From a virus (taxonomy: Duplodnaviria > Heunggongvirae > Uroviricota > Caudoviricetes), in the IMG/VR virus record IMGVR_UViG_3300029733_000185: a stretch of DNA of 64,000 nucleotides, one strand, 5' to 3'. Shown here in pieces: positions 29,642 through 62,310 of this stretch; the first letter of the stretch is position 1; every line of letters begins with the position of its first letter. Made by a program: the position numbers and the translations under genes. The notes beneath the pieces were generated by a model, which was not told the origin of the DNA, made no database searches, and was given only the letters and a program-made list of their open reading frames with translations.

Positions 29642-29717
29642 TGGTGGAAGCAGAGGGACTCGAACCCTCGACCTTCTGCTTGCAAAGCAGATGCTCTCCC
29701 AGTTGAGCTATGCCCCC
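29642..29717 (-). tRNA. tRNA-Ala(TGC)
   Basis: cloverleaf on minus strand; G3:U70 pair; anticodon loop CTTTGCAAG; CCA encoded. Confidence 0.8.
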
Positions 29718-29737
29718 AAATGAGAATCTTACCGAAA

Positions 29738-29813
29738 TGGTGGGAATAGTAGGTCTCGAACCTACGACCTCCTGCTTGTAAGGCAGGCGCTCTCCCAGCT
29801 GAGCTATATTCCC
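29738..29813 (-). tRNA. tRNA-Val(TAC)
   Basis: anticodon loop CCTTACAAG; T-loop TTCGAGA. Confidence 0.75.
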
Positions 29814-29816
29814 AAA

Positions 29817-29892
29817 TGGTGCCGGATCTCGGACTTGAACCGAACACCTCTGCGTTACGAAGGCAGCGCTCTACCAGATGAGCTAATCCAGC
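29817..29892 (-). tRNA. tRNA-Thr(CGT)
   Basis: anticodon loop TTCGTAA; C31-C39 mismatch. Confidence 0.6.
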
Positions 29893-29900
29893 GAAATGAG

Positions 29901-29976
29901 TGGTGCCACAGGCTGGAGTCGAACCAGCGACGCTCGGTTCTTCAGACCGACGCTCTACCTGCTGAGCTACCGTGGC
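29901..29976 (-). tRNA. tRNA-Phe(GAA)
   Basis: anticodon loop CTGAAGA. Confidence 0.8.
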
Positions 29977-29979
29977 ATA

Positions 29980-30055
29980 TGGTGCGAAATGCAGGACTTG
30001 AACCTACAACCTACGGCTTATCGAGCCGTTGCTCTGCCAATTGAGCTAATTTCGC
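29980..30055 (-). tRNA. tRNA-Ile(GAT)
   Basis: anticodon loop CTCGATAA. Confidence 0.75.
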
Positions 30056-30056
30056 A

Positions 30057-30132
30057 TGGTGATCGCAGTGGGATTCGAACCCACGATACAGGTTAGAAAG
30101 ACCTGCGGCTTAGACCGCTTGCCGATGCGACC
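30057..30132 (-). tRNA. tRNA-Glu(TTC)
   Basis: Glu-type D-loop AAGCGGTCTAAG; anticodon loop CTTTCTA with unusual U37. Confidence 0.55.
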
Positions 30133-30137
30133 GAAAA

Positions 30138-30214
30138 TGGTGAACGCACTGAGATTCGAACTCAGACTCTGCGGTTAGAGAGACCGCCATGTTAGCCTAT
30201 TACACTATGCGTCC
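30138..30214 (-). tRNA. tRNA-Glu(CTC)-like, isotype uncertain
   Basis: D-stem GTGT/ACAT; anticodon loop CTCTCTA (CTC with U37; alternative register would give TCT). Confidence 0.45.
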
Positions 30215-30217
30215 AAA

Positions 30218-30293
30218 TGGAGCAGGTGATCAGATTCGAACTGATGAATAATGGGTTTGCAGCCCACACCGTTAGCCTCTTCGGCACACCCGC
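30218..30293 (-). tRNA. tRNA-Cys(GCA)
   Basis: anticodon loop CTGCAAA; discriminator U73. Confidence 0.75.
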
Positions 30294-30300
30294 AAAAATA

Positions 30301-30376
30301 TGGCTCCCACGGCCAGACTTGAACTGACAACTTCCTGATTAACAGTCAGGCGCTCTACCGATTGAACTACGTGGGA
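30301..30376 (-). tRNA. tRNA-Asn(GTT)
   Basis: anticodon loop CTGTTAA; discriminator G73. Confidence 0.75.
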
Positions 30377-30380
30377 ATGT

Positions 30381-30457
30381 TGGCAGGGGCGGAGCGACTT
30401 GAACACTCGTGCCATGGTTTTGGAGACCAGGCGATTTCCTGTTATCTTTACGCCCCT
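30381..30457 (-). tRNA. tRNA-Trp(CCA), atypical D-arm
   Basis: acceptor AGGGGCG/CGCCCCT, anticodon loop CTCCAAA as in Bacillus tRNA-Trp; D-arm has an extra nucleotide. Confidence 0.55.
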
Positions 30458-30464
30458 GTATGTT

Positions 30465-30539
30465 TGGGTGGAATCCCGGGAGTCGAACCCAGATTACTTG
30501 TACCACAAACAAGCGTGCTACCGTTACACCAGAAACCAC
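30465..30539 (-). tRNA. tRNA-His(GTG)-like, possibly degenerate
   Basis: G-1:C73 feature and anticodon loop TTGTGGT, but two U-U mismatches in acceptor stem. Confidence 0.45.
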
Positions 30540-30617
30540 AAATGAGAAAGCGTATGTTTTGATTTTGCAACTATAATATAGAGCTGGGCTAAACATACAA
30601 AACAACTTCTACCCTTA

Positions 30618-30712
30618 TGGTGGTCGGAGATGAGGGAATCGAACCCACTCGAATGCCTAAGCACACCAGTTTTACAGACTGGGGTATCTACCTTAATACT
30701 TTAACCTCCGAT
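30618..30712 (-). tRNA. tRNA-Tyr(GTA)-like, long variable arm, irregular acceptor
   Basis: anticodon loop CTGTAAA, discriminator A73, long variable arm; A1-C72 mismatch. Confidence 0.45.
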
Positions 30713-30771
30713 TTATTAAATTGTCGCAGAATACCACGCCTGAACAACGGTTCAGACGTGGATAAATACAA

Positions 30772-32115
30772 CTATGCCGCGTTGTAAATTGTTTTTGCGT
30801 ATTTAAATGGTTGTAATTGCTTAACGCTTACAATTTTTTTGAATTCGTTATTTTTGATAGACACGTAAGTACCGCGGTTTTGTGTGCCAACCACTTCAAA
30901 TGTTCTGTTACGCCAAAGCACCGTATCATGTGGTTGGTACGGATATCGTTGTCTTCTGATAGATACTCTACCTTTGGAAATCTTTTGCTGTCTGTATGGA
31001 TGCAAGTTCTCACCATTCAGGTTTTTGTTACGAGTTGTTCTACCGCTAAATAATTCTTTACCGGTAGCCTTTTGACCCGTCCTTGCATCCACATATTTGG
31101 CATCGTGAAACTTTGCAAGACAACGATTATTTTTACGTTTCTCTTGCCAGAACACCGGTTCACACCGGTGCTTTGGCTGTTTGTCGCCGACACAATACGC
31201 ATCGTTGTAATGCGTTTTGTCTAACTGCAAATCTATCCGTTTGGATTTTGTCAAATAGCCAAAAGTCTCTACAACCGGAATCGTGTATTCATCACGCAGC
31301 TGTGTGATCAGCATTCGTCTGACCGTAGACATAAATGTCTCCGGTTTGAAAGACTTTTGCTTTGGTTGCAGACCATACAAAATCTGCCCCTTTTGATGAT
31401 TACGTGACGTATGACACTTGCTACACAGCGTTAATGTATTTGCAGGCGTATTTGAATGATCGTTTTTCCAATATCCGATATGATGCATGCGAAGCACTGC
31501 ACCATCTCGGAAAGCATTTTTACCACAGATCTGGCAAGTGTATCCGTCTCTGTAGAAAGTGTGCTCACGCAAATTTCGGAAGTCGTACATCTCGCCCTTT
31601 TGATATCCCTCACCGGAGATATCCGGGGTCTTTAATGCTTGAATATCGAAATTTGCGGTCTCTACATAGATCTTTGTAATCGGCAGAAGGCGCATCAACT
31701 TTCGAATGACCTTTTTGTGGCTGTCCAGCTTATGCTGAATGCTGGGTGCCAACCATTGGTCCGGTCTTCTGCGATTATCAAATCTTGGCTTGCGATGTCT
31801 CAAACGATTGCGACGCTTGCGACGATACGCTCGCCGGTCGTCTAATCGTTTGGACTGGTTTTCTAAAAGTTTTAATTCACCGGAAAACAACTCTTTGTTA
31901 TCAGTACAAGCAGAAATGCCAATATGCTGATAACCAGCATCGATTTTCAGATTAATGTCTTGTGTATTGTTTTCCGTCTCATAAAGCCATTGGATTGTAA
32001 ACGGATTGCCACTTACGACTTGAGCTTTATTGCTCTTCAACAGTTTGCGTACATAGCCACATCTTTCTGTTGGCATCAGTGGCTGGCCGTTTACATCTAA
32101 GACATACACCATCAT
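30772..32115 (-). CDS. iscB: IscB RNA-guided nuclease (PLMP, split RuvC, bridge helix, HNH, TI domains)
   Basis: 447 aa; N-terminus MVYVLDVNGQPLMPTERCGYVRKLLK (PLMP domain); RuvC-I LKIDAGYQHIGIS; Arg-rich bridge helix RRAYRRKRRNRLRHRK; HNH CQICG..HHI..N..CSKCH; RuvC-III HYNDAYCVG. Confidence 0.9.
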   Translation of the reverse strand: MMVYVLDVNGQPLMPTERCGYVRKLLKSNKAQVVSGNPFTIQWLYETENNTQDINLKIDAGYQHIGISACTDNKELFSGELKLLENQSKRLDDRRAYRRKRRNRLRHRKPRFDNRRRPDQWLAPSIQHKLDSHKKVIRKLMRLLPITKIYVETANFDIQALKTPDISGEGYQKGEMYDFRNLREHTFYRDGYTCQICGKNAFRDGAVLRMHHIGYWKNDHSNTPANTLTLCSKCHTSRNHQKGQILYGLQPKQKSFKPETFMSTVRRMLITQLRDEYTIPVVETFGYLTKSKRIDLQLDKTHYNDAYCVGDKQPKHRCEPVFWQEKRKNNRCLAKFHDAKYVDARTGQKATGKELFSGRTTRNKNLNGENLHPYRQQKISKGRVSIRRQRYPYQPHDTVLWRNRTFEVVGTQNRGTYVSIKNNEFKKIVSVKQLQPFKYAKTIYNAA

Positions 32116-32474
32116 AAGATATGGCTCCTTTCAATAAATTTGGTCTGGAATGACCAGCGCACAGACGGAGCCAAAGGCCCGGTCTGTGGTAAACCCACAT
32201 CGTCAATGTTATGAATTGTTTGTTGTGTACTGCACGTCTCCGACCCCATCAGAGATTTTTAACAACACACCGTAGTGCAAGGGGCTTGTGGAGCACCCCT
32301 TGGTACCTATTTGGCAGCCGAAGCTGCCATTAAAACATAACGTAGCACTCGAAGTGCTTAGACTAATCAACTATGGGCTTGTGATTTCTTACAAGCCCCA
32401 ACTGACTGTTTCACGGTTAGTCTGGGGTAATTGACAGTCAGGACCGCTACCGTTACGGAATATCGACGCATATA
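32116..32474 (-). ncRNA. omega-RNA of IscB (scaffold plus 5' guide region)
   Basis: about 360 nt non-coding region immediately upstream of iscB on the same strand; several stable stem-loops (GGGCTTGTGATTTCTTACAAGCCC, AAGGGGCTTGTGGAGCACCCCTT, CTGACTGT..ACAGTCAG). Confidence 0.65.
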
Positions 32475-32564
32475 CTGGTGCTGATAGTGGGAGTCGAACC
32501 CACACGGTGTTGCCACCATCGGGGCTTAAACCCGATGCGTGCTGCCAATTTCGCCATATCAGCA
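32475..32564 (-). tRNA. tRNA-Leu(TAA)
   Basis: 90 nt incl. CCA; anticodon loop TTTAAGC, long variable arm. Confidence 0.75.
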
Positions 32565-32629
32565 CATATAAATAGCCACACCTGATAGCCATACACACCA
32601 TTCAGTGTGGCTTTTTGCATTTATCGTTA

Positions 32630-33124
32630 TTATTTGGTAATCCGATCCGCAATTGTACTGGCCACAAAGGAATTTGGCTTGGTTTCAACATCGTAGCCGC
32701 AAGAGCGGATCCAACTTACCAACCCTGGGATAAGATCCTTTGTTTTCCCGTTAACCGAATTGCCCGCATCAATATGAATTGACAATGGATATTCTGCAAA
32801 CATCTCTCTATATATTGCATTACCCTCAAACATGTCTACCAGTTCCCCAGCCAAAGTTAACCTGGCAGCAGTTTCAGTTTGCAATTTGAGTTTTACATTT
32901 TGGATTAAGTCCTCACGAGAAACTTCGTAAAAGAAGATACCTCCATGTCCATGGGCAACAACCGCAATAACAGATACCATTTTTGTATTATTGAAATTTT
33001 GACTATCTGTGCCGACGATGATACTGATTTGATCTGTTTGTGCTTTATTACGCCGGTAATAAGCCAAGATAGCATCTGGAATTTCTGTAAGCTGTATTGA
33101 ATTCCCTGAACCGGTACAAAACAT
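32630..33124 (-). CDS. hypothetical protein embedded in tRNA array (possible RNase H-like fold)
   Basis: 164 aa, AAGGAGGG RBS; no secure motif; weak resemblance to YkuK/DUF458-like proteins. Confidence 0.45.
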   Translation of the reverse strand: MFCTGSGNSIQLTEIPDAILAYYRRNKAQTDQISIIVGTDSQNFNNTKMVSVIAVVAHGHGGIFFYEVSREDLIQNVKLKLQTETAARLTLAGELVDMFEGNAIYREMFAEYPLSIHIDAGNSVNGKTKDLIPGLVSWIRSCGYDVETKPNSFVASTIADRITK

Positions 33125-33148
33125 TGGACATACCCTCCTTGTAATTTT

Positions 33149-33236
33149 TGGCGGCGATGGAAGGATTCGAACCTTCGAGCCTTTTACAGCTAACGCGTTA
33201 GCAGTGCGCCGGTTTCAACCACTCACCCACATCGCC
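33149..33236 (-). tRNA. tRNA-Ser(GCT)
   Basis: 88 nt, long variable arm, anticodon loop CTGCTAA. Confidence 0.65.
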
Positions 33237-33240
33237 AAAA

Positions 33241-33316
33241 TGGTGCGCCGTTTGGGGTTCGAACCCAAGACCTCCAGATTAAGAGTCTGTTGCTCTACCG
33301 ACTGAGCTAACGGCGC
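33241..33316 (-). tRNA. tRNA-Lys(CTT)
   Basis: anticodon loop CTCTTAA. Confidence 0.7.
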
Positions 33317-33320
33317 ATAA

Positions 33321-33397
33321 TGGTCTGGACAACAGGATTCGAACCTGCGGTCTCCGGATCCCAAATCCGGCGCTTTACCAAACTAAGCTACGTCCAG
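33321..33397 (-). tRNA. tRNA-Pro(TGG)
   Basis: anticodon loop TTTGGGA. Confidence 0.75.
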
Positions 33398-33484
33398 ATA
33401 ACCAAATACATGCAGACAGATCAGATTTGCCGTGAAATATGTGCTCGACCACAGCAAGAATTCGATCTGATTTTGTCTGCATAT

Positions 33485-33559
33485 TGGCACCGCCTGCAGG
33501 ATTTGAACCCGCATTACAAGGTCCGTAGCCCTGTGTTCTGTCCTTTGAACTAAAGCGGT
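33485..33559 (-). tRNA. tRNA-Arg(ACG)
   Basis: anticodon loop CTACGGA. Confidence 0.75.
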
Positions 33560-33564
33560 GTATA

Positions 33565-33641
33565 TGGTGCCCCTACGAAGATTTGAACTCCGAATTGGGG
33601 ATTAGAAGTCCCCTGTTTTATCCAGATTAGACTATGGGGGC
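33565..33641 (-). tRNA. tRNA-Arg(TCT)
   Basis: anticodon loop CTTCTAA. Confidence 0.75.
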
Positions 33642-33644
33642 ATA

Positions 33645-33719
33645 TGGAAGCGATGCCGGGGATCGAACCCAGAATGCAAGAGTCAAAGTCTCGTGTTTTG
33701 CCGATTAGACTACATCGCC
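33645..33719 (-). tRNA. tRNA-Gln(TTG)
   Basis: anticodon loop CTTTGAC. Confidence 0.7.
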
Positions 33720-33838
33720 ATATAAGAGCAGGTTTTTCATTGACTGGGACACACACCAAAAATCTGGTGGAGGTGCGCAACGCTTCTCGTACTGCTATCT
33801 CGGCAATACCGAACGAGGCGAGTCCGGAACTCGCAAAT

Positions 33839-33924
33839 TGGTACTGGATAAGGGACTTGAACCCTTACGATCTAAATCAACGGATTTTGAATCCGTCGCG
33901 TCTGCCAAATTCCGCCAATCCAGT
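33839..33924 (-). tRNA. tRNA-Leu(CAA)
   Basis: 86 nt, long variable arm, anticodon loop TTCAAAA. Confidence 0.75.
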
Positions 33925-33939
33925 ATTTACATGAAAAAG

Positions 33940-34026
33940 TGGCGGGGCGTCAGGGACTCGAACCCTGAAGGCTGTTACACCCAACGGTTTTCAAGACCGC
34001 ACGACTACCAATTATCACAACGCCCC
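33940..34026 (-). tRNA. tRNA-Ser(TGA)
   Basis: 87 nt, long variable arm, anticodon loop CTTGAAA. Confidence 0.6.
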
Positions 34027-34120
34027 ACATATGCGGCAGACCGATATCGATCTGTTATAAGAACATTGGGAGAGGTGAATCACCCCTCTTATGCAGGAAC
34101 TCCTAAGTTACCTTGTTACA

Positions 34121-34197
34121 TGGCGACTCCGACCAGGCTCGAACTGGCAACCTCCAGCGTGACAGGCTGGCGCTCTACTCTTTTGAACTACGGAGCC
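34121..34197 (-). tRNA. tRNA-Asp(GTC)
   Basis: anticodon loop CTGTCAC. Confidence 0.8.
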
Positions 34198-34200
34198 ATA

Positions 34201-34286
34201 TGGTGCTCGATAAGAGATTCGAACTCTTACATCTTTCGATACCAGATCCTAAATCTGGCGCGTCTGCCAAATTCCGCCAATCGAGC
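34201..34286 (-). tRNA. tRNA-Leu(TAG)
   Basis: 86 nt, long variable arm, anticodon loop TTTAGGA. Confidence 0.75.
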
Positions 34287-34299
34287 AAATGAATAATAA

Positions 34300-34375
34300 T
34301 GGTGCGCCGTCAGAGAATTGAACTCTGGACCTTTAGATTATGAGTCTACTGCTCTAACCACTAAGCTAACGGCAC
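34300..34375 (-). tRNA. tRNA-Met or tRNA-Ile2 (CAT), elongator type
   Basis: anticodon loop CTCATAA; no initiator features. Confidence 0.65.
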
Positions 34376-34388
34376 AAACAACACAAAA

Positions 34389-34464
34389 TGGTGCGCGCAC
34401 GGGGACTCGAACCCCGGACCAATGGATTAAAAGCCCACTGCTCTACCAACTGAGCTATGCGCAC
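34389..34464 (-). tRNA. tRNA-Lys(TTT)
   Basis: anticodon loop CTTTTAA. Confidence 0.75.
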
Positions 34465-34477
34465 ATATTGGTTACAT

Positions 34478-34494
34478 CTATTAATACCACAAAT
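34478..34494 (-). promoter_or_regulatory. extended -10 promoter (TGTGGTATTAATA) driving tRNA sub-operon
   Basis: same TRTGnTATTAAT motif recurs at 22011-22026, 35941-35956, 38032-38046, 61755-61772. Confidence 0.45.
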
Positions 34495-34581
34495 TACAAA
34501 AAAACAAAAAAATGACCGGCTCAACAACGAAAGTTTTGATCGCGTTGAAACCGGCCAAGGTGCAATGAAAAAAATCCAAAG

Positions 34582-34658
34582 TGGAGCAGATAAGGGGATT
34601 TGAACCCCCACCACCGGTTTGGAAGACCGGGATGCTGACCATTGAACACCATATCTGC
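34582..34658 (-). tRNA. tRNA-Gly(TCC)
   Basis: anticodon loop CTTCCAA. Confidence 0.8.
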
Positions 34659-34663
34659 ATAAG

Positions 34664-34739
34664 TGGTGCTGGATATCTGACTCGAACAGATTACCTTCGG
34701 GTTACAAAGCCGACGTTCTACCAGGTGAACTAATCCAGC
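34664..34739 (-). tRNA. tRNA-Thr(TGT)
   Basis: anticodon loop TTTGTAA; C31-C39 mismatch as in the other Thr gene. Confidence 0.65.
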
Positions 34740-34768
34740 ATTTATGCGCCTTTGAAGGCGCTTGGATT

Positions 34769-35086
34769 TCAGGGCAAAATACACTCCAAAAAATGATGCA
34801 AATCAGGCATCGGAATGTATTCCCGCCGCACCTCAGCAATGTCCTTGCCGTCGCGATCATGCGGCAAGGCGTTATATTCTTTGACATAATTTTGCACAAG
34901 AGTATTGAGCAATTCTTGCTTCTTTTCTACCAGCTGCTTGCACTGGCGCAGAGACTCAACCGCAGAGACAATCTCATTTTCCTTTTCTCTGCGAACGTTT
35001 TCTCTGTCCTGTAAAGCGTTCTCAGCTGTTTTTAGCTGCTCTTCAGTGTCATATAGTTCTTTAGTCAATTCTGAAAAATATTTCAT
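34769..35086 (-). CDS. coiled-coil hypothetical protein
   Basis: 105 aa, heptad-rich, charged. Confidence 0.45.
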   Translation of the reverse strand: MKYFSELTKELYDTEEQLKTAENALQDRENVRREKENEIVSAVESLRQCKQLVEKKQELLNTLVQNYVKEYNALPHDRDGKDIAEVRREYIPMPDLHHFLECILP

Positions 35087-35253
35087 ATTTGTACCTCTCT
35101 TAAAAATAATTCAAACCTTTGAGTATTACGATAGCAGTTATCAGTAAAATGATAATCCTACTTAGCCATAAAACCCACTGTCTACTCGAAACACGCAGTG
35201 CATAAACGCACACAGATGTTGTTAGCGTAATGGCTATAAGCCAAATGAGACGA

Positions 35254-35409
35254 TTAGTCTCCAAACCACATCGTGCACCACTTCAAGATGCCCTCAACGT
35301 CTGGATCTACATGCTCTTTATTCTTGCAGGCGTTAACGATTAAATCAAACGCCTTTGCCTTATCGGCTGGCTTCATTTCAGTCAATGTTTCAAAATCTTT
35401 TTCAATCAA
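35254..35409 (-). CDS. small protein candidate (51 aa, TTG start) not in ORF track
   Basis: GAGGT RBS 8 nt upstream of TTG; balanced composition; coordinates +/-1. Confidence 0.25.
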   Translation of the reverse strand: MIEKDFETLTEMKPADKAKAFDLIVNACKNKEHVDPDVEGILKWCTMWFGD

Positions 35410-35462
35410 TGTTTATTACCTCTTTTGACAAATATTGTTGCACATTTGCCCGTGCCAGGCTT

Positions 35463-35538
35463 TGGGCCCGGGAGTGGGATTCGAACCCACGACTGTTGGC
35501 GTATGAGGCCAACCTGCTAACCGCTGCATTATCCCGGT
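35463..35538 (-). tRNA. tRNA-Met(CAT)-like, A1-G72 mismatch
   Basis: anticodon loop CTCATAC, T-loop TTCGAAT; mismatched first acceptor pair; not initiator-like (no GGG/CCC anticodon stem). Confidence 0.5.
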
Positions 35539-35967: not shown

Positions 35968-36537
35968 CTAAAAAATTAAGGAAAAAAGACAAAAAAGAAT
36001 AAGACTTAATGTACCAAAACGCAAGAAATGCCGGACTATCCAAAGCCACTGCACTTTTCCAATCCACCCAGCAATTGAATACGCACCACTACTCGTTCCC
36101 TTACGCGAATTACAAGTTCGACAAGCTGCAGCTAAATTCTTTTCGCAGTTGATGTTTTCAATCCCGGCCCTTTTAAGCAACCATTGTTTAAATTTGCTGC
36201 TTTTTACAGGCGCAATGGGAACAATATGATCTACTGTTACTTGGGCTTTTGGCAAAAGACGTCCACAGTACGCACAGAAGTAATGTCCGTCTATGCCTTT
36301 ATTGCATGAAAAAAAGGTTCGTCTATAAGATGAACCTCTTGTGAATGCTTGATTAACTAAACTATATCGCAAATGATGGCGCTTACAGTATTTTTCAACC
36401 TGTCGCTCCATCGACTCATCAAGCCCGTCAATAGATGTACATCTTTTTTGTTCATTTAAGAAGGGCTTAAACTCGTGTAAATCATTTCTGACGTATCTTT
36501 TCGTTGACCAGATGTCAACCACATAACTGTCTCCCAT
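35968..36537 (-). CDS. HNH endonuclease
   Basis: 189 aa; CAYCG...DHIVP...N..C..CNSRKG motif. Confidence 0.65.
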   Translation of the reverse strand: MGDSYVVDIWSTKRYVRNDLHEFKPFLNEQKRCTSIDGLDESMERQVEKYCKRHHLRYSLVNQAFTRGSSYRRTFFSCNKGIDGHYFCAYCGRLLPKAQVTVDHIVPIAPVKSSKFKQWLLKRAGIENINCEKNLAAACRTCNSRKGTSSGAYSIAGWIGKVQWLWIVRHFLRFGTLSLILFCLFSLIF

Positions 36538-41886: not shown

Positions 41887-42477
41887 TTATACCATACTGA
41901 GCACCAGCGCGAAAAGAGTACCAATCGAAATAAACGGAACGAACGCCGCCATTTTTAGTTTTTCTTTCTTTCTGATTCGATAAATAAGCGCGTGCAGAAG
42001 ATACGAAACGCAGGTTCCGATTAGCATGTATGGCAAATATGTAAACCCTGTCACTAAAGACACAGCAGCGAATACCCAAATATCAGCGCCACCGATTGCA
42101 TTCTTGCCCTTGATTTTAATCATAGCCAAAGCCAGAATAAAGACAAAGACAATCAAACCCGTCAATCCGTGATTGATTAAATATTGCTTCCACGGGATCT
42201 CTGCAGCGTGAACGGAACGCAAATACGTATTTTCAGCTAAAGCACATAATACCACATTCACAATTGCAAGTGGATACAAACACCCCGTCTGCCAATATTC
42301 AAGCTGATGCTTCTTGATGTCAACAACTGATAAATATGTCAGATATCCTAAAAGTCCGAGAGTCAGAATGAAATAAATCACTCCAACCGCGCCGGTATGA
42401 AACATGACTGTCAAAATTAAATTCCTCCTATTTTTAGTTTCCCTGGTCAGCATACCCGCCAGTGTTTCCAGATACAT
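41887..42477 (-). CDS. A24-family prepilin peptidase-like membrane protein (TadV/CpaA-like)
   Basis: polytopic; candidate catalytic Asp in SVVDIKK and in AIGGADIW (GGGD-like); start uncertain (42477 or 42531). Confidence 0.5.
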   Translation of the reverse strand: MYLETLAGMLTRETKNRRNLILTVMFHTGAVGVIYFILTLGLLGYLTYLSVVDIKKHQLEYWQTGCLYPLAIVNVVLCALAENTYLRSVHAAEIPWKQYLINHGLTGLIVFVFILALAMIKIKGKNAIGGADIWVFAAVSLVTGFTYLPYMLIGTCVSYLLHALIYRIRKKEKLKMAAFVPFISIGTLFALVLSMV

Positions 42478-43030
42478 TATTGGAATCTTCTCCAACATTC
42501 TGTACAAATTCGTAACTGGAAGTAAAATCAATTTTTCCGGTTGAAATTTTTGTTGGCTTATCGGCCAATGCCAATTTAGTTGTGTATGAGATCTTTGCTG
42601 TTACAGTGAAGTCAACCTTAAAGCTGTGATCTGTTGAATCTTTTGTAACGGACTTGATGTTAATGTCATCAAGACTAATTGTGAACCCGTTGCCAACAAG
42701 CTGATTGTTCTCTTCATCCGTTTTAAAGTTCGGGTTCTTCTCGAGAAAATACAGATATTTGTTTTTAAGGGTTGTCCCCTGCTCTTCCAGCTTTGCCTCA
42801 AGATCGCCCTGATACGACCCGCTCTGGAAATCAGAGAGTGAGTCATATGTTTCTCTTTGCAGTGTCGTTTCTAACATTGTAAGAGAATGTTCAAATGCGC
42901 GCGTCACAGTATAATGCGTGTTAAGCATATATACAACTTGAATCATTGTAAATGCCACGAGAATGATCATAACGCAAATTGCGCTTCCGCCAATAATGGA
43001 TGCACGCTTGTTTTTTAGAGTAGATTGCAT
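42434..43030 (-). CDS. TadE/TadG-like N-terminally anchored protein
   Basis: 198 aa; basic N-terminus then TM; beta-rich remainder. Confidence 0.4.
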   Translation of the reverse strand: MQSTLKNKRASIIGGSAICVMIILVAFTMIQVVYMLNTHYTVTRAFEHSLTMLETTLQRETYDSLSDFQSGSYQGDLEAKLEEQGTTLKNKYLYFLEKNPNFKTDEENNQLVGNGFTISLDDINIKSVTKDSTDHSFKVDFTVTAKISYTTKLALADKPTKISTGKIDFTSSYEFVQNVGEDSNNVSGNTGGYADQGN

Positions 43031-43042
43031 AATACAGCCCCC

Positions 43043-43537
43043 TTACTCCGACTTGAAGTAAACTTCACCAACGCCGGAAGAAGTGGCCGACAGCGTTGTT
43101 TTTACGGCCTTGCCGCCCACATGGAACAAGACCACCTGTGCTGAAGTGTGTACAGTAAATTCATCACCCAGGTTCACACCATATTGCCCGGCTTTGGAGT
43201 CACTTGTTAGCAGTAAGTCATCATAATGATAATAACTTGTATTCTCAGACTCTGTGTGAAAGCGAATCTCCAGCGAACCCGTCTCAATCCGTTTTCCAAG
43301 CTGTTTTGCCGCAGTGTCATAAATTTCTTCGCTTTTTGCATTATCGATTTCGCCACACACCGACACAGTTCTGGCAACATTATTTGCCACGATGTTCATG
43401 GTGTAAATGGAGAACACGTTGATAGTTAATTCAATGAGAATAACCACCAAGATAACTGCAATCGAGAAGAAAATTATAAAATCCGTTGATTGAGCAAAAG
43501 CCCTTTTCTCTTTTAGCTTCTGCTTGATTTGTGTCAA
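43043..43537 (-). CDS. TadE/TadG-like N-terminally anchored protein
   Basis: 164 aa; same architecture. Confidence 0.4.
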   Translation of the reverse strand: MTQIKQKLKEKRAFAQSTDFIIFFSIAVILVVILIELTINVFSIYTMNIVANNVARTVSVCGEIDNAKSEEIYDTAAKQLGKRIETGSLEIRFHTESENTSYYHYDDLLLTSDSKAGQYGVNLGDEFTVHTSAQVVLFHVGGKAVKTTLSATSSGVGEVYFKSE

Positions 43538-43556
43538 TATAGTAAACCACCTCTTT

Positions 43557-44267
43557 CTAAGCTACTTGCAAACAAATATTTGTATCGGCATTGTCTGTGT
43601 CGTAGTAATAATCTGTAAAGAAAGTTGGGCTCTTTTTTTTGAACGCCTGAACAACTTTTTCAATACGCGTTCTCACTTGCTTTTCAGACAACCCGTATTT
43701 TACGCCGACGGCTTTATCTGATTTCACTTTATCCGGATCTGAAAACTTATATAACAGCAGCTCCCCATCATCAATAGCAGCCACATCATGCAGCAAAGTC
43801 TTATTCATTATTTCCTGTTCTGTTTCGTTATGGTCTTTGCTCTTTCGACCCAGCACATAGTTCTGAACGGTGACTGATTTCATCTCATCGCGTCGTTCTT
43901 TTGGAATGTTACCCGTCACTTTTAAAAAGCCGGATTTTTTTTCATTCTTAAATGCGATATCCAGGGCTTTATTTAAATAATTCAAAAACGGACCATCCGG
44001 CTCACGATAATTGCTCACACATTTCTGTATTGTTACAAAATATAGAGAATTAAAATCATCCACCGAACAGTATGGCAAATATGCATTCTTCATTGCTACT
44101 TGAATTTTGCTTTTCACTTTACACTGTCGATAACACACCGCAATCAACTCTTGTGAGGCTTTGCCGACTTCGTGATCACGAGCAGCCATCGCCGTCACGT
44201 CAACGCTTTTTGCGGACGTATATGCCTTTGTATTGACCACATTTGCCAAATTGTATCCGTTTACCAT
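43557..44267 (-). CDS. hypothetical protein, possible sigma-factor-like regulator
   Basis: 236 aa; C-terminal segment YGLSEKQVRTRIEKVVQAFKK resembles sigma region 4 HTH. Confidence 0.4.
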   Translation of the reverse strand: MVNGYNLANVVNTKAYTSAKSVDVTAMAARDHEVGKASQELIAVCYRQCKVKSKIQVAMKNAYLPYCSVDDFNSLYFVTIQKCVSNYREPDGPFLNYLNKALDIAFKNEKKSGFLKVTGNIPKERRDEMKSVTVQNYVLGRKSKDHNETEQEIMNKTLLHDVAAIDDGELLLYKFSDPDKVKSDKAVGVKYGLSEKQVRTRIEKVVQAFKKKSPTFFTDYYYDTDNADTNICLQVA

Positions 44268-44346
44268 AAAATTTTACCTACCTTTGAAAAAATAAAGGAG
44301 AACCGTGCAGACGGTCCTCCTGATTGACTACTTGTGAATATTACTG

Positions 44347-44706
44347 CTACTTTGCGTAACGCTCAATAGCTTCCTGGGTTGGCTCCAAGGTACCAACGAT
44401 GTATTTCCTCATTGCCTCCTCAAAATAATGCTTAAAGACAACATATTGATTGGAGTCGCATTTCATTAATATACAGTACGTTCTTTTCGCATAGCTTTTC
44501 TTTGTGACCTCTGAAATATCCAAAATATTGATATTTTTCAGCCTGTTGTCCTTCATCTTTGCGAACATAATCATTGGTTTTACATTTACTTCCTGATTAT
44601 CTTTCAAGCAGTAATAAATCGTTAGATTATGTGGTTTGGTATCTTGCAGTGACTTCGGCAGTTGTTTGCTCGGCCCCTTGCTTCTCATGGTTATTTTTTG
44701 TTTCAA
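44347..44706 (-). CDS. hypothetical protein
   Basis: 119 aa. Confidence 0.5.
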   Translation of the reverse strand: MKQKITMRSKGPSKQLPKSLQDTKPHNLTIYYCLKDNQEVNVKPMIMFAKMKDNRLKNINILDISEVTKKSYAKRTYCILMKCDSNQYVVFKHYFEEAMRKYIVGTLEPTQEAIERYAK

Positions 44707-45623
44707 GCTTTTCCCTCCTGTTTTTGTTTTGGTGCTTCGTTTGCACTATTTGTTGCATCAACTTTGGCGCTCTTTGCTGTCTTCCTAGTCTTGATCAACT
44801 GTACAATTGTGTTAATCAGGTTCCATGTGTAAGTTACGATAAAATAGAAACTAATCACGATTGGCGTATTAAACACAATCGTTGCAGTCAACGCCAAAAA
44901 TGCCGTGTTCAAAATTGGCTGCGTTAACATCATAGCCTTACCCGCTGGTTTGAGTTTCTTAAAGCTTAATCGCATTTTTTCAATGCTCTGCCACAACCCA
45001 ATAATGTATTGTAAAACATACAAAACCATAGCCAATGTGGGGATAGACATCAACTGAGGATTATCCTTTACCGGTGGCACCAAATAGGTTTTTAATGAGC
45101 CCAAAGAAAAAGAGTCTCTTAAATCATAAAGCTTTTGAATGTCCGCTTTAGACACTCCGCCCTTTTCAAAGTCCGACTCATACTTTTCCAGATCCTTTAA
45201 CACACGGATTTCCGTGTATGGTGTGGACTTCTCTTCTTTGTCCATATATATTTGTGTAATGGTAGTTGCCGTGTCCTTTTCAACCACATGAAAATTAGAA
45301 ATGGGCTTAAATGTTGTAACCATTACTGCCACAATAGCAAAGTCAATAATGATTAATGCCGCTTTGGATAGAAATGTTAAATATGGATTGTAATTGGATT
45401 CCTTGTAGTATTCGTAAATCTTATCAGAGAGCACATCTCTGTCCCCGCCTGCTTCTTTTTGAAGCTGTGCGATTTTTTCGTCTCTAACAGCCTTTTCTTC
45501 ACTTTGCTTTTTGCTGTATTTATTCAAGAATATACGAATGATTTTAGTCACCAAACAAAGACCGATGATAAAAGCGGGATAACAAGTAATGGGAATGCCT
45601 AAAAGCCGAACTGTGGCTAACAT
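44703..45623 (-). CDS. polytopic membrane protein, possibly YidC/Oxa1-like insertase
   Basis: 306 aa; first TM followed by K/E-rich amphipathic segment ending ESNYNPY, reminiscent of YidC C1 loop. Confidence 0.45.
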   Translation of the reverse strand: MLATVRLLGIPITCYPAFIIGLCLVTKIIRIFLNKYSKKQSEEKAVRDEKIAQLQKEAGGDRDVLSDKIYEYYKESNYNPYLTFLSKAALIIIDFAIVAVMVTTFKPISNFHVVEKDTATTITQIYMDKEEKSTPYTEIRVLKDLEKYESDFEKGGVSKADIQKLYDLRDSFSLGSLKTYLVPPVKDNPQLMSIPTLAMVLYVLQYIIGLWQSIEKMRLSFKKLKPAGKAMMLTQPILNTAFLALTATIVFNTPIVISFYFIVTYTWNLINTIVQLIKTRKTAKSAKVDATNSANEAPKQKQEGKA

Positions 45624-62309: not shown

Positions 62310-62310
62310 G

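What the first reader, a model, noticed from the sequence alone, without database searches (positions are those of the whole stretch)
29642..35538. 28-gene tRNA array decoding all 20 amino acids, carried next to T4SS and replication genes
By cloverleaf and anticodon reading on the minus strand there are 12 tRNAs at 29642-30712, tRNA-Leu(TAA) at 32475, 14 tRNAs at 33149-34739 and a Met(CAT)-like gene at 35463. Together they cover every amino acid. Leu, Ser, Lys, Arg, Thr, Glu and Met each appear twice or more. Arrays of this size are typical of megaphages, jumbo phages or megaplasmids rather than ordinary ICEs. Here the array sits beside VirB4-like, VirB6-like, VirB2-like, primase, SSB and topoisomerase III genes, which suggests a large self-transmissible replicon or phage-plasmid. 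The array carries its own extended -10 promoters, for example at 34478-34494.
Basis: seen in the sequence. Interest (0 to 1): 0.75.

Follow-up and report, generated by a model that had tools for sequence, protein, structure and literature searches.

The report
tRNA array on gut conjugative element
A real block of 28 transfer-RNA genes covering all 20 amino acids sits inside the transfer and replication backbone of a very large, uncultured conjugative DNA element from the human gut; this kind of cargo is known from plasmids and phages, but this element family appears undescribed, and one tRNA gene has been split by an RNA-guided nuclease gene that has a spare copy of the same tRNA beside it.

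Summary
ARAGORN finds 27 tRNA genes on the minus strand and Rfam finds 26 above threshold. The 28th, Trp(CCA) at 30381-30457, is just below threshold but folds as a cloverleaf, never varies, and has an above-threshold homologue in a relative. All 20 amino acids are covered.

The tRNAs look functional. They carry three times fewer polymorphisms than spacers or coding sequence, and their stems covary with those of relatives.

The array lies between an HNH gene and topoisomerase III, inside a backbone of T4SS, helicase, primase and SSB genes. More distant relatives keep this backbone without tRNAs. Relatives at 58-67% TopoIII identity carry arrays at the same place. The array is therefore cargo gained by one subclade, not a chromosomal island.

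The element is human-gut derived, about 40% GC, unnamed, and absent from plasmid and phage reference sets. It runs at least 148 kb without a boundary and lies on contigs up to 1.12 Mb. No phage genes were seen. Plasmid versus ICE is unresolved.

The gap in the array is an IscB-ωRNA cassette inserted in the anticodon loop of an older tRNA-Tyr, followed by a different, complete tRNA-Tyr.

Verdict: a new member of a known kind (tRNA array unit, or L-array, on a mobile element).

The parts
29642..29717 (-). tRNA-Ala(TGC), last gene of the array; the downstream ORF starts 8 nt after it
   Evidence: ARAGORN; Rfam 70.9 bits
29738..29813 (-). tRNA-Val(TAC)
   Evidence: 73.9 bits
29817..29892 (-). tRNA-Thr(CGT)
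   Evidence: 52.7 bits
29901..29976 (-). tRNA-Phe(GAA)
   Evidence: 67.2 bits
29980..30055 (-). tRNA-Ile(GAT)
   Evidence: 69.7 bits
30057..30132 (-). tRNA-Glu(TTC)
   Evidence: 56.3 bits
30138..30214 (-). tRNA-Glu(CTC)
   Evidence: 58.7 bits
30218..30293 (-). tRNA-Cys(GCA)
   Evidence: 56.1 bits
30301..30376 (-). tRNA-Asn(GTT)
   Evidence: 66.8 bits
30381..30457 (-). tRNA-Trp(CCA), the 28th gene; weak 3-bp D stem
   Evidence: Rfam 27.2 bits, threshold 29. Cloverleaf MFE fold, z = -2.6. Invariant in 9 copies. Homologue in L056 scores 33.1 bits. Not called by ARAGORN.
30465..30539 (-). tRNA-His(GTG) with encoded G-1 (30539) opposite C73; two U-U mismatches in the acceptor stem
   Evidence: 46.4 bits; sequence; fold
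30621..30710 (-). tRNA-Tyr(GTA) 'Tyr-B', a complete class II tRNA that follows the IscB cassette. It is only 63% identical to the Tyr gene of IscB-free alleles.
   Evidence: ARAGORN; Rfam only 38.8 bits on the tRNA-Sec model; cloverleaf fold; comparison
30734..30761 (-). 12-bp hairpin just after the iscB stop codon; candidate right-end hairpin of the IS, or a terminator
   Evidence: read from the sequence
30772..32115 (-). iscB (447 aa): RRXRR/RuvC-type N-terminal domain plus HNH
   Evidence: Pfam PF14239 E = 1.7e-60 and PF01844
32189..32435 (-). ωRNA scaffold (HEARO RNA) of IscB
   Evidence: Rfam RF02033, 129 bits, threshold 83, full length
32436..32469 (-). 5' half (positions 1-33) of a disrupted tRNA-Tyr(GTA), 'Tyr-A'. 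Its last 16 nt, GGTAGCGGTCCTGACT (32451-32436), sit where the ωRNA guide lies.
   Evidence: Alignment with the intact Tyr-A of IscB-free alleles L049, L051 and L053. The guide matches L049 Tyr-A exactly.
32476..32563 (-). tRNA-Leu(TAA); an allele that differs from the one in IscB-free haplotypes (83% identity patch)
   Evidence: (55.9 bits)
32630..33124 (-). ORF (164 aa) of the RNase H-like PF04308 (YkuK/DUF458) family inside the array; absent from the array of relative L056
   Evidence: Pfam E = 3.9e-35
33149..33236 (-). tRNA-Ser(GCT)
   Evidence: 56.2 bits
33241..33316 (-). tRNA-Lys(CTT)
   Evidence: 70.8 bits
33321..33397 (-). tRNA-Pro(TGG)
   Evidence: 69.9 bits
33485..33559 (-). tRNA-Arg(ACG)
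   Evidence: 56.6 bits
33565..33641 (-). tRNA-Arg(TCT)
   Evidence: 52.9 bits
33645..33719 (-). tRNA-Gln(TTG)
   Evidence: 54.3 bits
33839..33924 (-). tRNA-Leu(CAA)
   Evidence: 54.5 bits
33940..34026 (-). tRNA-Ser(TGA)
   Evidence: 48.2 bits
34121..34197 (-). tRNA-Asp(GTC)
   Evidence: 56.4 bits
34201..34286 (-). tRNA-Leu(TAG)
   Evidence: 54.9 bits
34300..34375 (-). tRNA with CAT anticodon: elongator Met or lysidine-type Ile2, not resolved
   Evidence: 65.7 bits; sequence
34389..34464 (-). tRNA-Lys(TTT)
   Evidence: 68.8 bits
34477..34491 (-). Extended -10-like motif, TGTGGTATTAATAGA, about 15 nt upstream of tRNA-Lys(TTT)
   Evidence: GTGGTATTAATAGA is invariant in the window, L049 and the 67% relative L056, within a spacer that has otherwise diverged. 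Not found by the generic two-hexamer scan.
34498..34556 (-). Terminator-like hairpin (GGCCGG...CCGGTC) plus T-run after tRNA-Gly; it splits the array into at least two transcription units
   Evidence: sequence; an equivalent hairpin plus T-run is present in L056
34582..34658 (-). tRNA-Gly(TCC)
   Evidence: 55.3 bits
34664..34739 (-). tRNA-Thr(TGT)
   Evidence: 59.5 bits
34769..35086 (-). Small coiled-coil-like ORF (105 aa) between the outlying CAT tRNA and the main array
35463..35538 (-). tRNA with CAT anticodon, an A1-G72 mismatch and three G:C pairs at the foot of the anticodon stem; initiator-like but atypical
   Evidence: 57.4 bits; fold
35968..36537 (-). HNH endonuclease ORF (189 aa); the backbone gene that bounds the array upstream
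   Evidence: Pfam; the same HNH lies upstream of TopoIII in array-free relative L040
26809..28824 (-). Topoisomerase III; the backbone gene that bounds the array downstream and the anchor used to find relatives
   Evidence: Pfam PF01131 E = 4.6e-70

Best explanation
The region is a horizontally carried tRNA array unit (an 'L-array'): 28 same-strand tRNA genes that give one near-minimal decoding set. Twelve anticodons start with U, eight with G in the two-codon NNY boxes, seven with C, and one is ACG.

A subclade of a family of very large Bacillota-type conjugative elements from the human gut gained the array, between an HNH gene and topoisomerase III of the backbone.

The tRNAs are probably transcribed along with the co-directional backbone genes, from at least one internal extended -10 promoter. 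Host RNase P and 3'-end processing enzymes would then cut them out; every gene already encodes its CCA end.

Most likely the array gives the AT-rich element (GC3 = 0.40) its own supply of tRNAs matched to its codon usage. Expression of its several hundred genes, including 1,200-3,400-residue surface proteins, would then depend less on the tRNA pool of whichever host it enters by conjugation.

Shown here: the genes are real, under purifying selection, covarying, inside the element, and clade-specific. Inferred: expression, aminoacylation and the benefit to the element.
For: Real genes:
- The tRNA calls and folds support all 28.

Selection:
- Across 9 population copies, 1.05% of tRNA sites vary, against 3.4% in spacers and 3.7% in coding sequence.
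- Against the array of a relative with 67% TopoIII identity, 138 stem pairs differ. Of these, 103 remain canonical pairs and 82 changed on both sides. Stems change at 32% of sites and loops at 15%.

Inside the element:
- T4SS and replication genes lie on both sides.
- The HNH ... TopoIII - three ORFs - RecD-like helicase - DUF1848 - primase - SSB - AAA_5/CobT backbone recurs in relatives with 40-54% TopoIII identity. Those carry no array there: most have no tRNA within 10 kb, L057 has one and L044 has two elsewhere.
- Relatives at 58%, 64% and 67% identity have arrays at the same spot.
- The order Leu(CAA)-Gln-Arg-Arg-Pro-Lys-Ser-Leu(TAA)-Tyr is shared with L056.

Codon match:
- The element prefers A-ending codons. 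RSCU is 1.64 for ACA, 1.77 for AGA, 1.40 for CCA and 1.14 for GGA. In an Acutalibacteraceae chromosome that co-occurs with it, these values are 0.2-0.6.
- The extra C-starting tRNAs, Lys(CTT), Leu(CAA) and Glu(CTC), read the three commonest G-ending codons: AAG, TTG and GAG.
- The amino acids with duplicated tRNAs include the three most used: Lys, Ser and Leu.

Expression signal:
- A conserved -10-like motif follows a terminator-like hairpin.

Precedent:
- tRNA arrays on plasmids, conjugative elements and phages are described in PMC4758250, PMC8421152, PMC12803027 and PMC12633466.
Against: - The host is not identified, so a codon mismatch between host and element is not shown. The Acutalibacteraceae comparison rests on one probably chimeric contig.
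- The set is close to minimal, not enriched for particular rare codons, so a match to A-ending codons would be expected of any minimal set.
- No expression or charging data exist.
- Under standard bacterial wobble rules the C-ending codons of the four-codon boxes and CGG are poorly covered. With only two CAT genes, one of initiator Met, elongator Met or Ile2 is missing. The set therefore cannot replace the host's tRNAs.
- L-arrays studied elsewhere are mostly silent (PMC8421152).
Confidence: 0.45

Rival explanations
1. Counter-defence. The array exists mainly to replace or outnumber host tRNAs that anticodon nucleases cleave or deplete when a foreign element enters (PrrC/RloC-type, VapC-type and other tRNA-targeting defences). 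Its sequence-divergent tRNAs would escape recognition and keep translation running after conjugative entry.
For: - The array covers every amino acid instead of a few rare codons, which suits insurance better than codon tuning.
- Its tRNAs are at most about 89% identical to any tRNA in reference plasmids.
- The element itself carries defence and counter-defence style genes: RloB plus an AAA_15 ATPase, a SocA/Panacea antitoxin, and a Thg1-like tRNA 5'-end repair enzyme.
- The same idea has been proposed for mycobacterial arrays, Enterobacteriaceae megaplasmids and T5-like phages (PMC12803027, PMC12633466).
Against: - The anticodon loops look ordinary. Lys(TTT) has the canonical CTTTTAA loop, which is the PrrC target.
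- There is one gene per anticodon, not the many divergent isodecoders seen in the megaplasmids.
- No tRNA ligase was seen in 148 kb.
- Neither the host nor its nucleases are known.
Confidence: 0.2
2. Cryptic, stress-induced reserve. Like the Anabaena L-array, the genes are normally silent and are induced only when translation is impaired. They would act as an alternative tRNA set for the host cell, not for the element.
For: - The architecture matches an L-array: long, non-periodic, one orientation, patchy among relatives, with a homing-endonuclease-type HNH gene beside it (PMC8421152).
- An internal promoter behind a terminator allows separate regulation.
Against: - tRNA-Ala ends 8 nt before the next backbone ORF, and tRNA-Thr(TGT) starts 5 nt after the hairpin of the preceding ORF. 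The genes therefore sit within co-directional operon-like runs and are not insulated.
- The direct-repeat operator described for Anabaena was not looked for.
Confidence: 0.1
3. Chromosomal housekeeping set. The window is part of the chromosome of a small-genome gut bacterium, and the array is that cell's main tRNA complement, which happens to lie next to a chromosomal T4SS.
For: - Contigs carrying these genes reach 1.12 Mb, with no modal size.
- The same DNA carries DnaE, DnaN, RecG-like, NrdD, sigma-70, YidC and signal peptidase.
- The anticodon set is close to a minimal complete set.
Against: - A scan of one genome for each of 185,579 species found only one relative, at 58% identity.
- IMG/VR files a 148-kb contig as viral.
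- Most ORFs have no Pfam match.
- DnaE and NrdD are interrupted by homing-endonuclease or intein insertions.
- Relatives keep the same backbone without the array, which is impossible for a sole tRNA set.
- There are only two CAT genes and no tRNA for CGG.
Confidence: 0.08
4. Selfish passenger. The array gives no benefit and persists because it is spread and reshuffled by the mobile nucleases linked to it (HNH, IscB, TnpB) and by recombination between co-resident elements.
For: - Nuclease genes sit in or next to the arrays of three diverged relatives: HNH and IscB here, and TnpA plus TnpB in L017.
- An 800-bp seven-tRNA block is 91% identical between elements whose TopoIII DNA is 66-68% identical.
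- The IscB haplotype arrived with a patch of diverged flanking sequence.
Against: The threefold lower polymorphism and the many compensatory stem changes show long-term selection for foldable tRNAs. That would not be expected of neutral cargo.
Confidence: 0.1

Closest known systems
tRNA array units / L-arrays (Tran et al. 2016, PMC4758250; Santamaria-Gomez et al. 2021, PMC8421152)
   Same: - It has at least 20 tRNA genes at more than 2 per kb, all in one orientation and non-periodic.
- It covers nearly all amino acids.
- Its distribution among close relatives is patchy.
- It sits on a mobile element, next to a homing-endonuclease-type HNH gene.
   Different: - It lies in an uncultured human-gut Bacillota-type conjugative element, not in Acidithiobacillus, cyanobacteria or mycobacteria.
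- It is interrupted by an IscB-ωRNA cassette and an RNase H-like ORF.
- Nothing is known of its expression.
tRNA arrays of mycobacterial plasmids and phages (PMC5966550, PMC12803027) and of Enterobacteriaceae megaplasmids pMEGA (PMC12633466)
   Same: - These are large conjugative or extrachromosomal replicons that carry blocks of tRNAs for all 20 amino acids.
- Codon compensation and counter-defence have been proposed as their roles.
- The replicons also hold replication, secretion and auxiliary genes.
   Different: - pMEGA carries 100-208 tRNAs with many divergent isodecoders, at 26-30% GC, in Gram-negative hosts. Here there is one gene per anticodon, about 40% GC, and a Gram-positive-type T4SS.
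- No sequence similarity to reference plasmids was found.
Hodor conjugative megaplasmids of gut Bacillota (PMC12934698, preprint 2026)
   Same: - Both come from the human gut and have been filed as viral or huge-phage sequence.
- Both carry VirB4 and VirD4, giant secreted surface proteins and their own protein-export genes.
- Both have an HD-domain protein plus a separately encoded helicase in place of a classical relaxase.
   Different: - Hodors are 211-389 kb at 44.6-47.1% GC and are defined by Rep_3, ParA/B/M, sortases, SecYEG and proteins of more than 7,300 aa. None of these was seen in the 148 kb examined.
- This element is about 40% GC and lies on contigs up to 1.12 Mb.
- The Hodor paper's main text does not mention tRNAs.
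IS200/IS605-family IscB-ωRNA (OMEGA) elements and HEARO RNA (RF02033)
   Same: - The IscB has an RRXRR/RuvC domain plus HNH.
- A full-length HEARO ωRNA lies directly upstream.
- The guide position is occupied by the DNA flanking the left end.
   Different: - No TnpA is present.
- The insertion is in the anticodon loop of a tRNA gene inside a tRNA array.
- A second, divergent, complete copy of the same tRNA species follows the element.
- Four IscB relatives at 38-43% identity are not next to tRNA-Tyr.

Membership tests
tRNA array unit (Tran et al. 2016) | At least 20 tRNA genes | tested here: met
   27 by ARAGORN plus Trp(CCA) gives 28
tRNA array unit (Tran et al. 2016) | Density of at least 2 tRNA genes per kb | tested here: met
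   28 genes in 5,897 bp is 4.7 per kb, even counting 2.4 kb of inserted ORFs
L-array (Santamaria-Gomez et al. 2021) | Long, same orientation, not periodic (not built by tandem duplication) | tested here: met
   All genes are on the minus strand. The most similar pair within the array is 78% identical.
L-array (Santamaria-Gomez et al. 2021) | Patchy distribution among related genomes, consistent with horizontal acquisition | tested here: met
   Present in relatives at 58-99% TopoIII identity. No array in about 55 loci at 54% identity or less (L057 has one tRNA, L044 two elsewhere).
L-array (Santamaria-Gomez et al. 2021) | Supernumerary to the host's own tRNA set | not testable with these tools
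   The host genome is not identified
Conjugative element with a Gram-positive-type T4SS | VirB4-family ATPase | tested here: met
   ORF 811-3342: TraG P-loop PF19044, E = 5.5e-25, plus AAA_10; TraC-like in the precomputed hits
Conjugative element with a Gram-positive-type T4SS | Type IV coupling protein | tested here: met
   A 695-aa T4SS-DNA_transf/TrwB/TraG-D_C protein lies 2 kb beyond the left end of the window on the same contigs
Conjugative element with a Gram-positive-type T4SS | Relaxase | tested here: inconclusive
   No classical relaxase domain was found in the ORFs scanned with Pfam across the window and flanks. An HD plus ExoX-like_C protein (L114:889-1725) and a RecD-like helicase are candidates for a MOBH-like pair.
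ICE (integrative) | Integrase or recombinase, and junctions with chromosomal DNA | tested here: not met
   None was seen in 148 kb, and GC stays at 33-43% throughout. The region examined does not cover the whole replicon, so this is not an exclusion.
Plasmid | Replication initiator, partition genes, circular closure | tested here: inconclusive
   No Rep or Par genes appeared in 148 kb. DnaN, DnaE, primase and SSB are present. Circularity cannot be tested with these tools.
Phage-plasmid or jumbo phage | Terminase, capsid and tail genes | tested here: not met
   No Pfam structural domains appeared in the ORFs scanned with Pfam. Ten unknown ORFs gave 0 PHROG hits.
Hodor megaplasmids | Rep_3, ParA/B/M, sortases, SecYEG plus trigger factor, proteins over 7,300 aa, GC 44.6-47.1% | tested here: not met
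   None of these was seen in the region examined, and GC is about 40%. Coverage of the replicon is incomplete, and no Hodor sequence was available for direct comparison.
IscB-ωRNA (OMEGA) system | IscB with RuvC-like (RRXRR) and HNH domains, plus an adjacent HEARO/ωRNA upstream on the same strand | tested here: met
   PF14239 E = 1.7e-60 and PF01844; RF02033 at 129 bits, model positions 1-211
IscB-ωRNA (OMEGA) system | Autonomous IS200/IS605 unit with a TnpA (Y1) transposase | tested here: not met
   No TnpA lies next to iscB in the window. The relative L017 has TnpA plus TnpB instead.

The most novel reading that the evidence does not exclude
The IscB cassette may be an RNA-guided homing unit specialised for this array. 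Its ωRNA guide is the D-loop and anticodon-stem sequence of the resident tRNA-Tyr gene. IscB could therefore cut the intact tRNA-Tyr of IscB-free copies of the element when two variants meet in one cell after conjugation. Repair from the IscB-bearing copy would then copy in the whole cassette. The cassette brings a divergent, guide-resistant, complete tRNA-Tyr (with a variant tRNA-Leu beside it), so the array never loses Tyr decoding. This would be a tRNA-for-tRNA swap that makes the selfish insertion harmless, much as self-splicing does for IStrons.
Probability: 0.25. Interest if true: 0.7.

Novelty: new member of a known kind. Interest (0 to 1): 0.5.

Why it matters
Large tRNA arrays on mobile elements are known, but their role is unsettled: codon tuning, counter-defence or stress reserve. 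This case adds a widespread human-gut example on a very large Gram-positive-type conjugative element that no reference collection holds.

It comes with natural comparison sets that make the role testable from existing metagenomes and metatranscriptomes. Close relatives exist with and without the array. Population haplotypes exist with and without the IscB insertion.

The IscB insertion in a tRNA anticodon loop, with a spare tRNA beside it, shows how RNA-guided transposon nucleases and tRNA arrays can evolve together.

Tried and rejected
- **Reference collections.** Near-identity DNA searches of the plasmid and phage collections matched only short tRNA pieces. The best plasmid TopoIII match is C. 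perfringens pCW3-like at 37%. The Vescimonas 861-kb plasmid hit was one unrelated tRNA.
- **Host from contig L010.** This contig joins the array to an Acutalibacteraceae chromosome. I rejected it as evidence of integration. The breakpoint lies in the middle of tRNA-Leu and in the middle of a small ORF. It is a single Logan contig, and ten long Acutalibacteraceae chromosome contigs have no element at that locus.
- **Species-representative genomes.** The scan gave one relative at 58% identity, in a Ca. Gastranaerophilaceae MAG. The binning may be wrong, because other relatives carry Gram-positive adhesin domains such as TED and SpaA.
- **Walking out from the window.** I then reached both ends of a 148-kb IMG/VR contig by other routes and found no integrase, Rep, Par or phage structural gene.
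- **Promoter scan.** The generic scan showed no enrichment: 11 sites against 13.5 expected.
- **tRNA orthology with L017.** Same-anticodon identities of 59-76% are no better than between different isoacceptors, so this was uninformative.
- **Missing Tyr-A half.** A search for its 3' half in the window found nothing.
- **IscB relatives in IMG/VR.** Four relatives at 38-43% identity are not next to tRNA-Tyr, so there is no evidence of a tRNA-targeting IscB family.
- **Guide-flank scan.** Searching IMG/VR with the guide-flank sequence returned only the contig already in hand.
- **The two CAT tRNAs.** I could not assign them to initiator Met, elongator Met or Ile2 with the tools available.
- **Literature.** Searches found no description of this element, or of IscB inserted in tRNA genes.

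Full report

Rfam finds 26 of them at 46-74 bits against a threshold of 29.

Tyr(GTA) at 30621-30710 is an ARAGORN-only call. With permissive settings Rfam gives it 38.8 bits, and only on the tRNA-Sec model. It folds as a class II cloverleaf.

Rfam scores it 27.2 bits and ARAGORN misses it. Several things support it:
- Its minimum-free-energy fold is a cloverleaf with a 7-bp acceptor stem, a TTCAAGT T-loop and CCA centred in a 7-nt anticodon loop.
- It ends in CCA like all the others.
- It does not vary across nine population copies.
- Its homologue in a diverged relative is 84% identical and passes the Rfam threshold at 33.1 bits.

Assume that U-starting anticodons read whole four-codon boxes. 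The set then reads 59 of the 61 sense codons, or 60 if one CAT gene is a lysidine-type Ile2. CGG has no reader. Two CAT genes cannot cover initiator Met, elongator Met and Ile2 all at once (my reading). The set is near-minimal but cannot replace the host's.

**2. Are the genes functional?**

- Nine independent metagenome copies are 98-99.9% identical over the region. In them, 1.05% of tRNA sites vary, against 3.4% of spacer sites and 3.7% of coding sites.
- I compared same-anticodon tRNAs with the array of L056, a relative whose topoisomerase III is 67% identical. They differ at 138 stem pairs. Of these, 103 are still canonical pairs and 82 changed on both sides. Stem positions changed at 32% and unpaired positions at 15%. 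This is the pattern expected of tRNAs under selection.

**3. What surrounds the array?**

Every sizeable ORF in the 64-kb window is on the minus strand.

Downstream of the array (lower coordinates) lie:
- topoisomerase III, three ORFs without domains, a RecD-like helicase, an ECF-type sigma factor and DUF1848;
- a DUF3991/Toprim primase, SSB, an AAA_5 plus CobT-like pair and SpoVG;
- small membrane proteins, and a 602-aa protein with at least 6 hydrophobic segments;
- a 1,231-aa M23 peptidase, a PrgI-like protein, a VirB4-like ATPase and DUF5697.

Upstream lie an HNH endonuclease, signal peptidase, SPFH/NfeD, a nuclease, a prepilin peptidase, DUF4320, YidC, a 3,383-aa secreted protein, and SecB- and SocA-like genes.

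This is a Gram-positive-type conjugation and replication backbone. The array lies inside it, not beside it.

**4. Where does the window come from, and how big is the element?**

- The window is 100% identical to a 73.9-kb Logan contig.
- The same genes occur at 96-99% identity in many ENA, Logan and JGI contigs labelled human gut. These reach 1,117,200 bp.
- A 147,778-bp contig is filed as viral in IMG/VR.
- No source names any of the proteins. The element is absent from the plasmid and phage reference sets.
- A scan of one genome per 185,579 species found a single relative, at 58% identity.

I walked the IMG/VR contig from end to end. Beyond the window it carries:
- the coupling protein, a RecG-like helicase, a Thg1-like protein and many ORFs with no family;
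- thymidine kinase, a decarboxylase, a radical-SAM enzyme and Tad-pilus genes;
- a second sigma factor, a 1,185-aa fn3 protein and DnaE broken up by LAGLIDADG ORFs;
- DnaN, a ribosome-hibernation-like protein, NrdD with Hint and HNH insertions, and an HD plus ExoX-like protein.

GC stays at 33-43% throughout. I saw no integrase, Rep, Par, terminase or capsid gene, and ten unknown ORFs gave no PHROG match.

The element is thus a very large conjugative element. No phage genes were found. Plasmid versus ICE cannot be decided here. Four large contigs all end 385-398 kb to the same side of one gene. This suggests a shared repeat and a replicon larger than 1.1 Mb, or else a host chromosome.

One contig (L010) joins the array to an Acutalibacteraceae chromosome. 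I think it is a chimera, for two reasons. The breakpoint is in the middle of tRNA-Leu and of a small ORF. Ten complete-length Acutalibacteraceae contigs show no element at that place.

**5. Is the array a stable part of the element?**

I used topoisomerase III as an anchor to collect relatives.

| TopoIII identity | Locus | tRNAs found near TopoIII |
|---|---|---|
| 95-99% | several | the same 27-28 genes |
| 67% | L056 | 29 by ARAGORN, with the order Leu(CAA)-Gln-Arg-Arg-Pro-Lys-Ser-Leu(TAA)-Tyr shared |
| 64% | L043 | contig starts within the array; same Ala(TGC)-ORF-TopoIII ending |
| 58% | L017 | at least 17; contig end cuts the array |
| 54% or less | about 55 loci | none at that position |

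- Several of the array-free loci keep the same backbone, including the HNH gene, signal peptidase, SPFH, helicase, DUF1848, primase, SSB and the AAA_5/CobT pair. L044 has two tRNAs elsewhere in its locus.
- The array is therefore an acquisition of one subclade, placed between the HNH gene and topoisomerase III.
- An 800-bp block of seven tRNAs is 91% identical between the window and L056, while the neighbouring topoisomerase DNA is 66-68% identical. Either this block is very strongly conserved, or array segments are exchanged between diverged elements.

**6. Transcription**

- After tRNA-Gly(TCC) there is a long hairpin followed by a T-run.
- Next comes TGTGGTATTAATAGA, about 15 nt before tRNA-Lys(TTT).
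- The 14-nt core GTGGTATTAATAGA is identical in L056, although the rest of that spacer has diverged and carries its own hairpin and T-run.
- The generic two-hexamer scan found no excess of promoter-like sites.
- tRNA-Ala ends 8 nt before the next ORF, so read-through into the backbone genes is likely. That step is inference.

**7. Why is the array split?**

The 2.4-kb gap holds an RNase H-like ORF of family PF04308, then tRNA-Leu(TAA), a full-length HEARO/ωRNA at 129 bits, and iscB.

Four contigs of the same element (L049, L051, L052, L053) lack IscB. They are 96-99% identical to the window on both sides. In them, Leu(TAA) is followed 6 nt later by an 87-nt tRNA-Tyr(GTA), which I call Tyr-A.

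In the window:
- The first 34 nt of Tyr-A, up to U33, are fused directly to the first base of the ωRNA scaffold.
- The 16-nt guide position therefore reads GGTAGCGGTCCTGACT, an exact match to intact Tyr-A.
- The 3' half of Tyr-A is gone.
- After the iscB stop codon and a 12-bp hairpin comes a complete but different tRNA-Tyr(GTA), Tyr-B, 63% identical to Tyr-A.
- tRNA-Leu(TAA) also differs in this haplotype. The patch is 83% identical, the acceptor stems are identical, and the inner stems differ.
- Identity returns to 99% right after the Tyr 3' end.

An ωRNA guide is the DNA that flanks the element, so a match to the empty site is expected for this transposon family. Two things are unusual: the target is a tRNA anticodon loop inside an array, and a spare copy of the same tRNA follows the insertion.

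Four IscB relatives at 38-43% identity are not next to tRNA-Tyr. I found no report of such an arrangement. Whether this is a homing cassette or an insertion later repaired by recombination remains open.

**8. Most likely function**

The element's genes have GC3 = 0.40 and prefer A-ending codons. The twelve U-starting anticodons read those codons directly.

Three of the extra C-starting tRNAs read the three commonest G-ending codons: AAG, TTG and GAG. The amino acids with duplicated tRNAs include the three most used.

I think the array most likely supplies tRNAs matched to the element's own codon usage. That would make expression of a very large AT-rich gene set less dependent on the recipient's tRNA pool. 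I give this 0.45. The weak points are that the host is unknown, any minimal set would fit A-ending codons, and there are no expression data.

The rivals are:
- counter-defence against tRNA-cleaving host systems (0.2);
- a silent stress reserve as in Anabaena (0.1);
- a selfish passenger spread by its nucleases (0.1);
- a chromosomal housekeeping set (0.08).

**9. Comparison with known systems**

- By the published definitions this is a tRNA array unit, with 28 genes at 4.7 per kb. It is also an L-array: one orientation, non-periodic, patchy among relatives, next to an HNH gene (PMC4758250, PMC8421152).
- Arrays on plasmids, conjugative elements and phages are established, including mycobacterial plasmids and Enterobacteriaceae megaplasmids (PMC12803027, PMC12633466).
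- The carrier resembles the recently described Hodor megaplasmids in habitat, in being mistaken for a virus, and in its T4SS, giant surface proteins and HD-plus-helicase pair. It differs in GC, contig size and every defining marker I could check. The main text of that paper does not mention tRNAs.

**10. Verdict**

- The finding is correct and well described.
- The array is a new member of a known kind, on an element family that appears to be undescribed.
- The IscB/tRNA-Tyr arrangement is the most unusual detail.
- Interest is moderate, 0.5.

Noticed in passing
window 30621-32563 (minus strand); IscB-free alleles L049:8029-8208, L051, L052, L053: An IscB-ωRNA cassette is inserted in the anticodon loop of a tRNA-Tyr gene. 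The 5' half of the old gene supplies the ωRNA guide, its 3' half is missing, and a different complete tRNA-Tyr (63% identical) follows the cassette. tRNA-Leu(TAA) also differs in this haplotype. Both haplotypes occur in human-gut metagenomes.
   Followed up: yes
L056:4690-5303: The tRNA array of a relative with 67% TopoIII identity contains a full-length ROOL RNA (RF03087, 260.8 bits) between tRNA genes. The window has no ROOL RNA.
   Followed up: no
L017:473-2362 and L017:4577-5029: In the relative at 58% TopoIII identity (a contig binned as Ca. Gastranaerophilaceae), an IS200/IS605 TnpA plus TnpB pair sits inside the array just upstream of tRNA-Leu(TAA). A YqeY-like ORF also lies among the tRNAs. 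This is a second case of a transposon-type RNA-guided nuclease next to Leu(TAA).
   Followed up: partly
L046:5401-10867 and L114:1824-5192 (same element, 20-45 kb beyond the right end of the window): The element's DnaE is split into three ORFs by two LAGLIDADG ORFs. Its anaerobic ribonucleotide reductase NrdD carries Hint (intein) and HNH insertions. DnaN and a ribosome-hibernation-factor-like ORF lie nearby.
   Followed up: partly
L036:16287-17204 (about 14 kb beyond the left end of the window): The element carries a Thg1-like ORF (PF04446), from a family that adds to or repairs tRNA 5' ends. The array's tRNA-His already encodes its G-1.
   Followed up: no
L010:1-8544: A single Logan contig joins Lys-Ser-RNase H-like ORF-first 52 nt of tRNA-Leu(TAA) to an Acutalibacteraceae chromosomal region (FG-GAP, two-component system, PrmC, ScpA/B). 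It is probably an assembly chimera, but it shows that the two co-occur in one sample.
   Followed up: partly
window 47562-57713: A 3,383-aa ORF with an N-terminal hydrophobic segment has no Pfam match in my scan (the precomputed hits list DUF8195). It is likely a giant secreted surface protein. A 1,231-aa M23 peptidase protein lies in the window, and a 1,185-aa fn3/Big_2 protein lies just beyond it.
   Followed up: no
window 41887-45623 and L038:6515-11878: A Tad/Flp-like pilus gene set lies on the same strand as the T4SS: prepilin peptidase, DUF4320, RcpC-like protein, AAA_31 ATPase, CpaF-type ATPase and two membrane proteins. YidC, signal peptidase and SecB-like genes accompany it.
   Followed up: no
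L028:6971-9041 and window 61857-63412: An AAA_15 ATPase plus RloB pair (AbiL-like defence) lies next to SocA/Panacea antitoxin-like and SecB-like genes. Gene content in this segment varies between otherwise near-identical contigs (L028-L033).
   Followed up: no
L051:5911-6666 and L052 (same position): Some copies of the array carry an extra insertion of about 750 bp with a small ORF, between tRNA-Ser(TGA) and tRNA-Leu(CAA).
   Followed up: no
window 33146-33946 versus L056:499-1275: A seven-tRNA block, spacers included, is 91% identical between two elements whose topoisomerase III DNA is only 66-68% identical. This suggests exchange of array segments or unusually strong conservation.
   Followed up: partly
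window 33398-33484, 33720-33838, 34027-34120, 30539-30620: The four long spacers in the array (82-119 nt) each contain an inverted repeat or hairpin. An example is ATGCAGACAAAATCAGATC...GATCTGTCTGCAT at 33398-33484. They could be processing or regulatory structures, or decayed tRNA genes.
   Followed up: no
contigs behind L013-L016: Four large contigs from different samples (732-1,117 kb) all end 385-398 kb to the same side of the DUF5697 gene. This points to a shared repeat that breaks assemblies, and to a replicon larger than 1.1 Mb.
   Followed up: no
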